Assembly (NCBI GenBank): GCA_964016885.1
Contig: OZ024742.1
Coordinates: 51,646,001-51,710,000 of the forward strand
Direction of reading: 5' to 3'
DNA: 64,000 bases
Origin: Eledone cirrhosa
Lineage: Eukaryota
The translations under genes were made by a program, and so were the position numbers. The notes beneath the pieces were generated by a model. It ran no database searches and had not been told where the DNA came from. It worked only from the letters and a program-made list of their open reading frames with translations. Below, piece after piece: positions 15,273 through 62,712 of the stretch; positions within the stretch are counted from its first letter, which is position 1; every line of letters begins with the position of its first letter.

Positions 15273-17487
15273 TAAACAATTAAGTTAAAAATCTACATCT
15301 ACATATGCATACTGAAATACTAGTATGCATATGAATACACACACGTATACATATGTAGATGTAACAAGTCTTTCACTGGTTACTTTACTGTGAGTAACCC
15401 AGCTATTCTGTATGTAAACACACAGACAAACTGGTTTTTAGAGTCATACTGGTTTTCGAGGAAACACCTTTCCTCTATTCTCCAGAAAGCCAGACAAGGA
15501 ACATTGAACTAGTTTCGTTGTTGTTACAACTCATCAGCAATATTTACCTATCTACCGGCCCTTCTGGAGAATCGTAAAAGCACATATCGTTATATGCTTT
15601 TTCTATGAAAATTAGTAGTGGGCAGACCAATTTGCATAGAGTGTGAGTACGCACCGGTTCAGCGGAGACGATAAAAACGAATAACGAAACGAAATTAAAT
15701 TTCGTTTCGTTTGTAACTCACTTTTGTCTGACTGACGCTTAAACAATTAAGTTAAAAATGTACATCTACATATGCATACTGAAATACTAGTATGCATATG
15801 AATACACACACGTATACATATGTAGATGTAACAAGTCTTTCACTGGTTACTTTACTGTGAGTAACACAGCTATTCCGTATGTAAACACACAGACAAACCG
15901 GTTTTTAGAGTCATGCTGGTTTTCGAGGAAACACCTTTCCTCTATTCTCCAGAAAGCCAGACAAGGAACATTGAACTAGTTTCGTTGTTGTTACAACTCA
16001 TCAGCAATATTTACCTATCTACCGGCCCTTCTGGAGAATCGTAAAAGCACATATCGTTATATGCTTTTTCTATGAAAATTAGTAGTGGGCAGACCAATTT
16101 GCATAGAGTGTGAGTACGCACCGGTTCAGCGGAGACGATAAAAACAAATAACGAAACGAAATTAAATTTCGTTTCGTTTGTAACTCACTTTTGTATGACT
16201 GACGCTTAAACAATTAAGTTAAAAATGTACATCTACATATGCATACTGAAATACTAGTATGCATATGAATACACACACGTATACATATGTAGATGTAACA
16301 AGTCTTTCACTGGTTACTTTACTGTGAGTAACCCAGCTATTCTGTATGTAAACACACAGACAAACCGGTTTTTAGAGTCATGCTGGTTTTCGAGGAAACA
16401 CCTTTCCTCTATTCTCCAGAAAGCCAGACAAGGAACATTGAACTAGTTTCGTTGTTGTTACAACTCATCAGCAATATTTACCTATCTACCGGCCCTTCTG
16501 GAGAATCGTAAAAGCACATATCGTTATATGCTTTTTCTATGAAAATTAGTAGTGGGCAGACCAATTTGAACCGGTGCGTACTCACACTCTATGCAAATTG
16601 GTCTGCCCACTACTAATTTTCATAGAAAAAGCATATAACGATATGTGCTTTTACGATTCTCCAGAAGGGCCGGTAGATAGGTAAATATTGCTGATGAGTT
16701 GTAACAACAACGAAACTATTTCAATGTTCCTTGTCTGGCTTTCTGGAGAATAGAGGAAAGGTGTTTCCTCGAAAACCAGTATGACTCTAAAAACTGGTTT
16801 GTCTGTGTGTTTACATACAGAATAGCTGGGTTACTCACAGTAAAGTAACCAGTGAAAGACTTGTTACATCTACATATGTATACGTGTGTGTATTCATATG
16901 CATACTAGTATTTCAGTATGCATATGTAGATGTACATTTTTAACTTAATTGTTTAAGCGTCAGTCATACAAAAGTGAGTTACAAACGAAACGAAATTTAA
17001 TTTCGTTTCGTTATTCGTTTTTATCGTCTCCGCTGAACCGGTGCGTACTCACACTCTATGCAAATTGGTCTGCCCACTACTAATTTTCATAGAAAAAGCA
17101 TATAACGATATGTGCTTTTACGATTCTCCAGAAGGGCCGGTAGATAGGTAAATATTGCTGATGAGTTGTAACAACAACGAAACTAGTTCAATGTTCCTTG
17201 TCTGGCTTTCTGGAGAATAGAGGAAAGGTGTTTCCTCGAAAACCAGTATGACTCTAAAAACCGGTTTGTCTGTGTGTTTACATACAGAATAGCTGGGTTA
17301 CTTACAGTAAAGTAACCAGTGAAAGACTTGTTACATCTACATATGTATACGTGTGTGTATTCATATGCATACTAGTATTTCAGTATGCATATGTAGATGT
17401 ACATTTTCAACTTAATTGTTTAAGCGTCAGTCATACAAAAGTGAGTTACAAACGAAACGAAATTTAATTTCGTTTCGTTATTTGTTT
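15273..17487. mobile_element. Retrozyme-like array family 1: 467-bp units, ~2.8 copies then ~2 inverted copies
   Basis: Unit starts at 15274, 15741, 16208; inversion junction at ~16567; (TA)n on both flanks; one minimal HHR per unit; no ORF in the track attributable to the unit. Confidence 0.88.
17151..17195 (+). ncRNA. Minimal hammerhead of family 1 (also 16684-16728 +; 15500-15544, 15967-16011, 16434-16478 -)
   Basis: AATATTG-CTGATGA-GTTG taacaa CAAC-GAAA-CTAG-TT-CAATGTT: 7-bp stem I, canonical core, palindromic ACTAGT stem III. Confidence 0.88.
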
Positions 17488-17927
17488 ATATATATATATA
17501 TATATATATATATATATATATATATATATATATATATATATATATATATATATATATATATATATATATATATATATATATATGTATATATTTATATATA
17601 TGTATATATATGTATATATATGTATATATGTGTAAATATGATAATAATGGAGCTGCGGCGTTGCAAATGGGTTACATATGAAAAAGTTTGTCCTTCATCA
17701 GTGGCCTTCCAACCGTCACAGGCATTTCATCGCTTTAAAGGCCATATACCTCAGGTTGGGGCGAGCAACGGCTAAAAAAAGTCGTTGGGACACGTAAATA
17801 AAGGGGACGTTAGGGTAAACAAACAAAATGGTTTAAGCAACAGAAAGTGATGAAGAAAGAGACAAGTCCCAGATTTCTATGAATATAGAAATGTTTTGCA
17901 AGTATATTGAAAGCAAACGTTTAGAAT

Positions 17928-18435
17928 ATGACAGCAGTGACAAAACCAAACTATGAGGATGTGAGAAATGCTTGTGATCAGCTTTAGAAGGAGGTTATAT
18001 TGATACAGATGGAATATATTGTGATATATAAATTATTCCACAAACGCAGACCTTCGTTGCATGCCGCCATCAGAGCTCAGGTCCTTGTTATAAGCATATT
18101 AGTTAAAGAGGCTCCATGAAATATATATTGGGATTAATTTGTTGACCATGTTATTTACTGGTTTATGTTCGTTTGAAGAAGGTTCAACAAATATATATCA
18201 TATTCCCCTTCGATCGACGAATTTGAAACGTTGTATTGATATCAGGAAAACCAAAATGTAGTTTATGAACTTGTTTACAATATTCAATATGCATTCTTGA
18301 TATTATAAAATCGAGATTAAAAACAAAACATAAGTAGGGCTTCAACAACTTTCAATGTGTAGGATACATAAAGAGAATGATTTCTTTGCAGTGTAATCAT
18401 AAAATAGTGTTCTGACAAGAGTCAATATATAATCT
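17928..18435 (+). repeat. ~500-bp element, inverted copy of 4794-5299, followed by (TTC)n; HHR-like motif 18168-18237
   Basis: TTGAAGA-AGGTTC...GAATTT-GAAA-CG-TT; alignment to 4794-5299. Confidence 0.8.
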
Positions 18436-60143: not shown

Positions 60144-61369
60144 AAATATATATATATATATATATATTATATATATATATATATATATATATATATATAT
60201 ATATATATATATATATATATATATATATATATATATATATATATATATATATATATGCGCGCACGCGAGCGTGTGAGTGTGGATTTTACACATCTCCCCA
60301 TGCATTGAGTACACACATGATTAGTGGTCTCTTCGGTCTCAGCACCACAGCAGCTATATATATATAGGATGTCCCAAAGTGTGTATACATTCTTTTGGCA
60401 CACACTGTATATATATATATATATATATATATTATATATATATATACATATAAGTGTGACTGTGTGTATGTGAGTGTGTCTATTACTAACTGCGAAGTTA
60501 TACTTTTTAATAATTTCTTTAAAAAATATATATAAATTAATGCAACACCAAACTTATATTTTCTATACAAATACAGATATTTCTATTTTCTAATGTATAT
60601 ATAAATTCTTATTTACGAAAGTTGTTTCAGCAATTACTAGAAAGGATTCTTTCAAAATTTAAATGTGCTATAATCATTGTACTTGTTTTCCAAAATAGAA
60701 ATCTATTATTGCGATAAAATGCATTGAATTCTGTTTTTTCTTCATTTCCTGTAACCATTGTATAATTGGAATATACAACATATAAATTGTAATAATGAAT
60801 TAAACATTGTAAATGCCTGGGAATTTTTTTCTTTATGATAAACATAAACTAAAGAAAGAAAAAGAAAAATTGTGAGAAATTGTTTGATAATGGAAAATAA
60901 GCAATCTGTAACAATGCATTAATAATAAACACTTGAAACAATTAAATAGTTTAATTAAAATTTTCAGGAAGCGGGAGTGGGTTGATGGTTGTAAATGAGA
61001 ACATTAAATATTAGAAGAGGAAAATGAGAATGTGGAGAAAAAAGACGAGCAAGCAAACGTCGATAATGCACAATAGCATTTCATTAGAATAGAATAAAAG
61101 GTGAAATATGATATGTATAAATATGATACTCAAAGTGAAGTAAATTGATCAAAGGAAAGAATCCCTGGGGATATGTTAGAGATCATCTACACGACAGTTT
61201 GATATGCACGAAAGAGCAGTTACACTCACTGCACTAAAATCACACTATACCCTAATAATTATAACCTATATACTACTAAAAAGTATATATATATATATAT
61301 ATATATATATATATATATATATATATATATATATATATATATATATATGTGTGTGTGTATATATATATA

Positions 61370-62712
61370 GGTATGTATACGTACATACATGTATGTATAC
61401 AGACGTACAGTAGTATGTATATATATACATACATGCACACATATATATATATGTACGTATGGGTTTATCGAACATTTATTATAATGCTCGGTGTGTTTGT
61501 TAACAAACAGACAGCCTGGATTAAGCCGTACAGTGTTTAGCAACCATCGTTGCCCTTTTGTTCAACACTGACAAAAGAACGATGTACTAGTTTCATGCTT
61601 ATTAGCTATCGTCAGCATCGTATACCTTCCTGTCAGACGATTGAACGTCTGAAAGTATATACTTTCCTTATGCATATTAACGGCTGAGCAACCTAATTTG
61701 CATATCGAGTGAGTTAGTCGGCCGGGCGCACCGTAAACGATAAATAGAAAGAATGAAACGAAATTTCATTTCTCACTCTTAATTAGGCTGTTACTTAAAT
61801 ATAAGTATGTATACGCACATACTGCCAACTCGTTTTCGAGTACGGCCGCTACTTTATAACCATGTAGTAGAACCCCTACTGATGCGCTAAACGAGTGTGA
61901 CTCTTTAGTCCAGCCAGCGACTTGAAAACTCTGGTACAAACACTACACTTGTGACAATTATTGACACATAGTGCAAGGCCCATGGTACCATGTGACGACA
62001 AGTGTAGAGAGATCTCCAGATATAAAGCAATGCCTGTGCCGTGAAGCTTTTATAGTGAGCAAAGGCACTGCACAAAGCCAGTCCCACTCTCTTAACCAAG
62101 ATGATATTTACCAAAAAGAAGAACAAGTCAACATCATTGGATACCATCAGGGTTGCAGGTGTTATATCAGAGTTTTCCTTCTCCTAGAATTCTGCCTTGA
62201 CAAAGGCTAAGGGTTCATCTTTCCTTTGATTAATTTACTTCACTTTGAGTATCATACGCACATACATATATGTATACAGACGTACAGTAGTATTTATATA
62301 TATACATACATGCACACATAATGATATGTACGTATGGGTTTATCCAACATTTATTATAATTCTCAATGTGTTTGTAAACAAACAAACAGCCCGGATTAAG
62401 CCGTACAGTGTTTAGCAACCATCGTTGCCCTTTTGTTCAACACTGACAAAGGAACGATGTACTAGTTTCAAGCTTATTAGCTATCGTCAGCATCGTATAC
62501 CTTCCTGCCAGATGATTGAACGTCTGAAAGTATATAATTTCCTTATGCATATTAACGGCTGAGCAGCCTAATTTGCATATCGAGTGAGTTAGTCGGCCGG
62601 GCGCATCGAATACGATAAATGGAAGGAATGAAACGAAATTTCATTTCTCACTCTTACTACGGCTGTTACTTAAATATAAGTAATATACGTACATACATAT
62701 ATGTATACAGAC
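61370..62712 (-). mobile_element. Retrozyme-like family 2 dimer interrupted by a ~430-bp insertion
   Basis: Units 61370-61822 and 62254-62712; HHRs at 61580 and 62455. Confidence 0.85.
61823..62253. mobile_element. Insertion homologous to 2507-2905 with 12-bp TSD
   Basis: atacgcacatac at 61811-61822 and 62254-62265. Confidence 0.8.

What the first reader, a model, noticed from the sequence alone, without database searches (positions are those of the whole stretch)
15400..62660. Families 1 and 2 are distant homologs sharing ordered motifs, including an octamer: possible snRNA-type internal promoter
Seen on the plus strand in the same order (family 1 vs family 2): tgtaaacacacagac vs tgtaaacaaaca; gacaaggaac vs gacaaaggaac directly before the HHR with an identical ACTAGTTTC; ccAATTTGCATagagtg vs ctAATTTGCATatcgagtg (61370 and 62254 copies; mutated in the 34689 array); ccgg...acgataaa in both; then an AT-rich aaacgaaatt..tttc hairpin. 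Spacers are unalignable by eye. ATGCAAAT lies about 90-100 nt upstream of the HHR on the sense strand. Established: newt satellite 2, an HHR repeat, uses an snRNA-type promoter with an octamer. Inference: these are selected cis-elements for transcription or RT recognition that define a superfamily.
Basis: partly seen in the sequence, partly recalled or inferred. Interest (0 to 1): 0.7.

Follow-up and report, generated by a model that had tools for sequence, protein, structure and literature searches.

The report
Ribozyme repeats with hybrid snRNA promoter
The two repeat families are related, protein-less jumping elements whose units each hold a hammerhead (self-cutting RNA) motif behind short DNA words that match, in sequence and spacing, the promoters of this animal's own small nuclear RNA genes, so they likely switch on their own transcription, which has not been tested.

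Summary
Observation confirmed. Family 1 (467 bp) and family 2 (424-500 bp) are homologous over the whole unit (60% identity), not only at motifs. They are non-LTR retrozymes with Penelope-type insertion structure: tandem plus inverted arms in (TA)n, two preferred 3' ends, 40,421 hammerhead cores genome-wide. GACAAGGAAC is hammerhead stem I. ACGATAAA with the AT hairpin marks a preferred 3' end. The octamer is part of TATGCAAATTAG, the box at -76..-78 of host U6, U6atac and MRP genes. Four sister families keep it, plus YCASY at +16 and a TATA-like word at +42..45. That spacing fits host U1/U2/U4/U5/U12 promoters, not U6 (+46..48). Best reading: an internal, hybrid snRNA-type promoter, likely Pol II, as reported for newt satellite 2. 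Against: no expression data; within family 2 the motifs are not significantly better conserved (p=0.06); no host gene has this hybrid; an octamer-mutant lineage still amplified; no autonomous partner found. This scan already noted promoter-bearing retrozymes on other pieces of this genome. New variant of a known kind.

The parts
15273..16568 (-). Family 1 left arm, 2.8 tandem 467-bp units, 3' end joined to (TA)n
16567..17491 (+). Family 1 right (inverted) arm, 2.0 units, 3' end at the TTTAT word joined to (TA)n
16984..17027 (+).
17057..17068 (+). Octamer box TATGCAAATTGG (most F1 copies TATGCAAATTAG); matches the host U6/U6atac/MRP upstream box; also at 16590 (+), 15638 and 16105 (-)
17074..17078 (+). 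YCASY word at octamer +16 (CCACT); host Pol II-type promoters carry YCAGY at -55..-58
17101..17105 (+). TATA-like word at octamer +43; predicted start about 17130
   Evidence: start site inferred
17125..17221 (+). Type I hammerhead with extended stem I; core 17158-17187, palindromic stem III ACTAGT, predicted cut after 17188; GTTCCTTGTC 17193-17202 is the 3' strand of stem I
   Evidence: RF02275, E 3.9e-7, 35 bits, below the gathering score of 52
17275..17282 (+).
33301..33787 (.). Family 2 copy with inverted arrangement; octamer variant ATACAAAT at 33704-33711 (+)
34688..36182 (-). Family 2 array, 3.5 x 424 bp, 99% identical; hammerhead C3 at 34995, 35419, 35843; octamer variant ATGCATAT (e.g. 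35068-35075)
36188..36718 (+). Family 2 inverted arm of the same insertion; hammerhead C3 at 36467
61362..61822 (-). Family 2 copy, octamer 61696-61703 intact
62235..62712 (-). Family 2 copy: octamer 62571-62578, TCAGC at +16, TATA-like at +42, hammerhead C3 at 62490

Best explanation
Families 1 and 2 are homologous, protein-less hammerhead repeats of a superfamily of at least six families in this genome, and each unit carries a block (octamer box, YCASY at +16, TATA-like at +42..45) that likely works as an internal snRNA-type promoter, more likely for Pol II than for Pol III. Shown: homology, the hammerhead motif, tandem and inverted arms in (TA)n, two preferred 3' ends, and the match of the block to host snRNA promoters. 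Inferred: transcription would start about 15-27 nt upstream of the hammerhead core and run through the oligo-T tracts into the next unit. Two hammerheads would pair through their palindromic stem III and cut out a unit-length RNA, which would be circularised and so carry the promoter sequence. A Penelope-like RT/GIY-YIG protein would nick (TA)n and start copying just after the AT hairpin (TTTAT) or at a second site about 55-70 nt away. That would give head-to-tail multimers with an inverted, 5'-truncated arm.
For: Homology: (91 of 133 F1 base pairs can form in F2, against 41-73 when slid; 14 double changes, 7 of them in extended stem I). Abundance: 40,421 hammerhead cores against 3 for the reversed pattern. 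Insertion form: both orientations at 26 of 49 F1 and 40 of 96 F2 loci; 39 of 47 F1 3' ends fall in two bins and 40 of 47 abut TA repeats. This is the Penelope signature described in PMC8557442 (passages) and PMC11167929 (parts 1-2 read). Host box: five host Pol III-type promoters share TATG(C/G)(A/T)AAT(T/G)AG with the octamer at -76..-78. With a 12-column matrix from them, the best site in three intact units is this box, reached by 0-2 of 300 shuffles. Four more families were found (4,503 hits against 13). With the octamer left unspecified, it is intact in 89 (F2), 77 (F4) and 75 (F3) of the first 100 listed copies (counted by eye). Across 21 representatives of six families, the only unforced columns at 0.9 or above are T-1, A+9, G+10, C+17 and A+18. 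TATAW lies at +42..45 in 16 of 21 and at +46..48 in 0 of 21. YCAGY lies at -55..-58 in 8 of 8 U1/U2 promoters and, as an independent set, in 9 of 9 distinct U4/U5/U12 promoters, with TATAW about 25-27 nt later in 7 of those 9. All three features occur together at 103 of 189 element octamers and 0 of 51 other octamers (copies are not independent). In F4 and F6 the octamer is not the arm of a clean downstream hairpin. T5-T7 runs inside units fit read-through by Pol II.
Against: No transcript, start-site or cleavage data. Within family 2, motif columns carry shared variants at 12 of 60 against 78 of 238 elsewhere (p=0.06), and the box ranks only 84th of 318 windows by divergence. None of 18 host Pol II-type promoters has an octamer 16 nt before YCAGY, so the hybrid has no host model. 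A 44-column matrix of host Pol II-type promoters scores F1 and F2 at 2.0 and -0.5, against 13-26 for 7 of 9 left-out host promoters. F1 and F3 mostly read YCACY where the host always has G. The host distal word TTACCTCCCTTG is absent from F1, and F2 has it only with 3 mismatches. An ATGCATAT lineage formed near-identical arrays (window 34688; L097), and its site is not significant (26 of 300 shuffles). In F1, F2 and some F3 and F5 copies the box is one arm of a predicted RNA hairpin. The five Pol III promoters were picked: 2 of 15 U6 loci and 5 of 6 U6atac loci lack the box, and 6 U6 loci have it displaced by an insertion. F3-F6 were first found with a pattern that required the octamer. No Penelope element sharing the unit was found.
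Confidence: 0.52

Rival explanations
1. Same elements, but the block is a U6-type (Pol III, type 3) promoter: octamer box plus TATA, start about 77 nt after the octamer, and rare read-through of the T tracts supplies unit-length RNA.
For: The 12-mer is the host Pol III-type box, in the sense orientation. The only T4+ runs of the F1 unit lie in the promoter region and near the unit end, none in the roughly 285 nt from just before the hammerhead onwards; in F2 they lie only just before the promoter block.
Against: TATAW is at +42..45 in the elements and at +46..48 in 5 of 5 host Pol III-type promoters. Host Pol III-type promoters lack YCAGY. Amplified units contain T5-T7 tracts, and genomic 3' ends lie beyond them. 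In insects the PSEA-TATA spacing is conserved to within 1-2 bp (PMC1761439, passages).
Confidence: 0.2
2. There is no promoter. The conserved words are RNA-level signals (hairpins bound by the Penelope protein or needed for circle stability), and the units are made by read-through from host promoters, as proposed for animal retrozymes.
For: Every motif lies in a predicted stem or loop (z -10 and -8.8). The ATGCATAT change perfects the hairpin and still amplified. There is no significant excess conservation within F2. The review PMC7761336 states that retrozymes seem to lack promoters (passage).
Against: The octamer and its flanks persist in F4 and F6 without a clean partner arm, and keep a mismatch in the F1 and F2 hairpins. 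The columns conserved across families are those invariant in host promoters, at host spacing. F4 carries two or three further octamer-like repeats upstream.
Confidence: 0.18
3. The block is the ordinary promoter of a Penelope pseudo-LTR from which the families derive, with a POU site as activator; the likeness to snRNA promoters is incidental.
For: Non-LTR retrozymes are related to Penelope pLTRs in Xenopus (bioRxiv 10.64898/2026.07.22.740005, parts 1-3 of 5 read). Penelope pLTRs hold internal promoters (PMC8557442, passage).
Against: 3' regions of four Penelope-like elements in the window do not align with F1 or F2 in the same orientation (best 4 of 100 shuffles). In the six loci read in full, the elements are separated from the neighbouring Penelope-like ORFs, mostly by (TA)n tracts.
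Confidence: 0.1

Closest known systems
Metazoan non-LTR retrozymes (Cervera and de la Pena 2020, PMC7229834, passages; Li, Clavereau and Pollet, bioRxiv 10.64898/2026.07.22.740005, parts 1-3 of 5)
   Same: Non-coding tandem units with a type I hammerhead in each, low GC, strongly self-paired, thousands of copies, Penelope-rich genome.
   Different: Units of 424-500 bp are at the long end. They carry a candidate internal promoter, which a review says retrozymes seem to lack (PMC7761336). Inverted arms and (TA)n targeting are prominent. Circular RNA and cleavage are not shown here.
Newt satellite 2 (Coats, Zhang and Epstein 1994; paper not held, known here only from its citation in PMC2220036)
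   Same: Hammerhead tandem repeat with an internal snRNA-type promoter used by Pol II.
   Different: The words here match this host's own promoters, and the octamer box is the proximal box of U6-type genes.
Penelope-like elements and their non-autonomous derivatives (PMC8557442, PMC11167929, PMC4209133; passages or parts read)
   Same: Partial tandems, inverted 5'-truncated arm, microsatellite targeting, two 3' ends (the 'tail'), palindromic stem III implying dimeric cleavage.
   Different: No ORF. The hammerhead is canonical-like with an extended stem I. The two ends are about 55-70 nt apart rather than 30-40. No matching pLTR was found.
Schistosome hammerhead satellite with a Pol III promoter (Ferbeyre 1998, seen only as cited in PMC2220036)
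   Same: Hammerhead repeat with an internal promoter.
   Different: Pol III there; here an upstream-type snRNA block whose spacing fits the host's Pol II-type genes.

Membership tests
Metazoan non-LTR retrozyme | Type I hammerhead motif in each unit | tested here: met
   Core and stems found in each full unit (the 61362 copy has one core change); F1 matches RF02275 at E 3.9e-7, below gathering; the F2 copy gave no Rfam hammerhead hit, and none reached gathering in the window
Metazoan non-LTR retrozyme | Short non-coding tandem units, no LTR, PBS or PPT | tested here: met
   467 and 424 bp tandem units; no meaningful ORF in the F1 units; PBS and PPT not searched for specifically
Metazoan non-LTR retrozyme | Highly self-paired RNA | tested here: met
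   z -10.1 and -8.8
Metazoan non-LTR retrozyme | Self-cleavage and circular RNA in vivo | not testable with these tools
   No biochemical tool; no run on record as RNA was available
Non-autonomous Penelope-like element | Tandem plus inverted insertions, microsatellite target, alternative 3' ends | tested here: met
Non-autonomous Penelope-like element | Sequence shared with the pLTR or 3' end of an autonomous element | tested here: inconclusive
   No match to four elements in the window or to neighbours in fetched loci; no genome-wide Penelope library was searched
Host Pol III type-3 promoter (U6, U6atac, MRP) | TATG(C/G)(A/T)AAT(T/G)AG box in sense orientation | tested here: met
Host Pol III type-3 promoter (U6, U6atac, MRP) | TATA at octamer +46..48 | tested here: not met
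   +42..45 in 16 of 21 and +46..48 in 0 of 21 representatives; 145 against 4 of 189 sites
Host Pol II snRNA promoter (U1, U2, U4, U5, U12) | YCAGY core with a TATA-like word 25-27 nt later | tested here: met
   YCASY at +16 in 152 of 189 element sites, TATAW 26-29 nt later; F1 and F3 have C in place of G
Host Pol II snRNA promoter (U1, U2, U4, U5, U12) | AATTA word about 33 nt before YCAGY and distal TTACCTCCCTTG | tested here: not met
   44-column matrix scores 2.0 and -0.5; distal word not found with fewer than 3 mismatches
Host Pol II snRNA promoter (U1, U2, U4, U5, U12) | Start site, SNAPc dependence, polymerase | not testable with these tools
   Needs 5'-end mapping or a reporter

The most novel reading that the evidence does not exclude
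A superfamily of circular-RNA retroelements built a hybrid promoter found in none of the host genes examined: the upstream box of the host's U6-type genes joined to the core and spacing of its U1/U2-type genes. The promoter travels inside the ribozyme-cut circle, so each new multimer is self-expressing, and tens of thousands of such promoters are scattered over the genome.
Probability: 0.35. Interest if true: 0.7.

Novelty: new variant of a known kind. Interest (0 to 1): 0.5.

Why it matters
How animal retrozymes are transcribed is open; a 2020 review states that they seem to have no promoter (PMC7761336), with newt and schistosome satellites as older exceptions (cited in PMC2220036). Here six diverged families give a natural footprint of a promoter, with exact predictions for start site and polymerase. 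The work also defines this host's U6-type and U1/U2-type promoter words, which is useful for guide-RNA or short-hairpin expression in this animal group. If active, the more than 21,000 family-2 copies are a large pool of octamer sites.

Tried and rejected
Expression: no RNA holder listed. Contigs of four unlabelled runs cover the unit and show the head-to-tail joint, which tandem DNA also gives, so this is no evidence either way. Rfam at gathering threshold: nothing; the miRNA and snoRNA hits are hairpin or microsatellite noise. Autonomous partner: tblastn of seven window ORF pieces on fetched loci and alignment of four 3' regions found none. The GIY-YIG fragment next to the 62235 copy has a 3' region without family 2. 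Thirteen odd ACTAGT hammerhead hits were tested as old relatives: none aligned convincingly upstream (one, L186, 0 of 100 shuffles to F1 only). Three downstream hits probably come from TA repeats; one locus (L190) has an octamer-like word at -86. The octamer as a vertebrate-style distal enhancer was rejected: one exact octamer (at -399) among the 27 distinct U1/U2 upstream regions printed. An antisense promoter from the hairpin's 3' arm was rejected by eye, as it has no TATA at either spacing. Coats et al. 1994 is not held. Paper searches that found no report of promoter-bearing retrozymes in cephalopods; subscription papers and preprint supplements were not visible. Look-ups of earlier notes by relatives and by sequence were empty.
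Full report
1. Observation. The motifs and their order are exactly as stated. Family 1 (F1) is an insertion at 15273-17491: 2.8 units of 467 bp with the ribozyme on the minus strand, then 2 units inverted, both ends in (TA)n. Family 2 (F2) occurs at 33301-33787, 34688-36718 (3.5 x 424 bp plus an inverted arm), 61362-61822 and 62235-62712. 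F1 and F2 align from the AT hairpin to the long TA-rich hairpin. The score is 177-181 against a shuffle maximum of 50-53, and both sides of the hammerhead are significant on their own. Identity is 254 of 420 aligned positions, so the spacers are diverged but alignable. The three best-kept 12-mers are the hammerhead core, the octamer box and the AT hairpin, each 11 of 12.

2. What the elements are. Each unit holds a type I hammerhead with a palindromic stem III (ACTAGT) and an extended stem I. F1 matches Rfam HH9 at E 3.9e-7, below gathering; the F2 copy did not match. A short palindromic helix III implies dimeric cleavage (PMC4209133, passages). The core pattern occurs 40,421 times in G000 against 3 for the reversed control. 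The best-scoring full-length F1 copies are 97-99% identical to the window unit and the best F2 copies 92-95%. Both orientations occur at 26 of 49 F1 and 40 of 96 F2 loci. Of 47 F1 3' ends, 39 fall at two places and 40 abut TA repeats (the F2 count is noisier because of an internal microsatellite). In both families one preferred end is the TTTAT of TTTATCGT, just after the AT hairpin. Partial tandems, an inverted 5'-truncated arm, microsatellite bias and two ends are Penelope hallmarks (PMC8557442); in vitro the two ends match two RT start sites (PMC11167929). The window holds several Penelope-like ORF remnants, but none shares sequence with F1 or F2. Mobilisation by a Penelope protein is therefore inferred.

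3. Sorting the motifs. GACAAGGAAC is, on the sense strand, the 3' strand of stem I; 7 of 27 aligned pairs of the extended stem changed on both sides and still pair. ACGATAAA with the AT hairpin marks a 3' end and is the best candidate for RT initiation. TGTAAACA is a hairpin tip, kept in F6 and only loosely in F3-F5. TTTATCGT and CCGG are not kept at their place in F3-F6. Only the octamer block and the hammerhead span the whole superfamily.

4. Host promoters. I fetched host U1, U2, U6, U6atac, RNase P, MRP, U5, U4 and U12 loci. Of 15 U6 loci, 7 have an octamer-like box at -76..-78, 6 have it displaced by an insertion and 2 lack it. 1 of 6 U6atac loci and the single MRP gene have it. Five distinct promoters give TATG(C/G)(A/T)AAT(T/G)AG with TATA 46-48 nt after the octamer start. 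U1, U2 and RNase P instead show TCAGT (at -56..-58 in 8 of 8 U1/U2 promoters chosen as distinct), a TATA-like word near -30 in 6 of 8, and AATTA near -90. The later, independent set (6 U5, 2 U4 and 1 U12 distinct regions from 12 loci given) has YCAGY at -55..-58 in 9 of 9 and TATAW at -27..-32 in 7 of 9. The gene classes are called Pol II-type and Pol III-type from general knowledge of these RNAs, and RNase P is grouped by its pattern.

5. The elements against these promoters. TATGCAAATTAG is the commonest form in F1 (50 of 73 anchored units) and F2 (56 of 100) (arrays are over-represented). A matrix from the five promoters ranks it first in three intact units, with 0-2 of 300 shuffles as good; the ATGCATAT array is not significant (26 of 300). 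An earlier scan note mentioned sister families, so I searched for an octamer followed by a hammerhead with another stem III: 4,503 hits against 13. These gave F3-F6; most pairs of families are barely alignable downstream of the ribozyme. With only the flanks fixed, the octamer is intact in 89, 77 and 75 of the first 100 listed copies of F2 (21,199 hits), F4 (1,153) and F3 (1,303) (counted by eye). Anchored on the octamer without gaps, five of 132 unforced columns reach 0.9 across families: T-1, A+9 and G+10 (invariant in the Pol III-type box) and C+17, A+18 (the CA of YCAGY). Ungapped columns lose register with distance, which favours near columns. TATAW lies at +42..45 in 16 of 21 representatives and never at +46..48. 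All three features occur together at 103 of 189 element octamers and 0 of 51 others. The core-to-TATA distance (26-29) fits the Pol II-type genes (25-27). The predicted start is about +72..74, that is 27 nt (F1) or 15 nt (F2) before the hammerhead core.

6. Results against. Within F2 (73 loci, one copy each), motif columns are only marginally less variable (12 of 60 against 78 of 238, p=0.06), and the box ranks 84th of 318 windows. F1 (24 loci) is too young to test. A long Pol II-type matrix does not recognise F1 or F2, and the distal host word is missing. No host gene examined has the hybrid. The box is paired in a predicted hairpin in F1, F2 and some F3 and F5 copies, though not cleanly in F4 or F6. 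The ATGCATAT variant removes a hairpin mismatch and has made homogeneous arrays at two loci, though only 8 of the first 100 listed copies, all at one locus, carry it. There are no expression data.

7. Mechanism. Likely: SNAPc- or POU-dependent start inside a unit, Pol II read-through of the T5-T7 tracts, dimeric hammerhead cleavage to a monomer that contains the promoter sequence, circularisation as shown for other animal retrozymes (PMC7229834, passages), then target-primed copying by a Penelope protein at (TA)n. Sequence anatomy, homology, insertion form and promoter match are shown; every biochemical step is inferred.

8. Known relatives and novelty. Membership among non-LTR retrozymes is met on the sequence criteria, with circles and cleavage untested. 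An internal snRNA-type Pol II promoter is reported for newt satellite 2 (cited in PMC2220036; the paper itself was not held), while a review says retrozymes seem to lack promoters. My paper searches found no description of this superfamily. This scan had already reached a promoter-bearing-retrozyme reading on other pieces of this genome; those notes are not independent evidence. Verdict: real, a new variant of a known kind, interest 0.5.

Noticed in passing
window 9139-13568: Near-complete Penelope-like element (RT plus GIY-YIG, ORF pieces 9962-12244 with stop and frameshifts) with inverted terminal arms 9139-9462 / 13244-13568 and a decayed hammerhead-like motif with stem III ACCGGT near 13420-13455; a 95% identical copy lies in L211.
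   Followed up: partly
window 40830-42885 (-), 51043-52426 (-), 62927-63514 (+): Three further Penelope-like fragments; the short 3' end of the first recurs many times in the window next to (TA)n (e.g. 48-152, 25068-25228, 44318-44505).
   Followed up: partly
window 61822-62224: A 400-bp repeat, 96% identical to 2506-2908, separates the two family-2 copies.
   Followed up: no
L161 (RNase P RNA gene): Its upstream region has the U1/U2-type pattern (TCAGT, two distal TTACCTCCC words) and lacks the U6-type box, which suggests Pol II transcription of RNase P RNA in this host.
   Followed up: partly
L111-L147, about -255 to -290: A distal word TTACCTCCCTTG is shared by many U1, U2 and U6 loci, U12 and RNase P: a likely host distal enhancer element.
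   Followed up: partly
L152, L153, L155-L158: Six U6 array copies have a roughly 190-bp repeat inserted at the TATA region, which moves the upstream box to -270; the same repeat family is common in the window (e.g. 14768-14954).
   Followed up: no
L241, L245, L246 (family F4): Two or three extra 33-bp repeats with octamer-like words precede the main octamer.
   Followed up: no
L097: One insertion holds both ATGCAAAT and ATGCATAT units; the change perfects the hairpin, as template-switch correction of an imperfect palindrome would.
   Followed up: no
window 6010-7036: Tandem array of about 8.5 x 99-bp palindromic units with TA spacers.
   Followed up: no
window 47470-48530, 39690-40324, 56893-57298, 4651-5304/17923-18578: Several other long inverted-repeat insertions, similar in form to Penelope-type fold-backs.
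   Followed up: no
window 27655-27666 (-): An isolated TATGCAAATGAG, the top-scoring host-box site in the window, with no ribozyme or known gene seen behind it.
   Followed up: no
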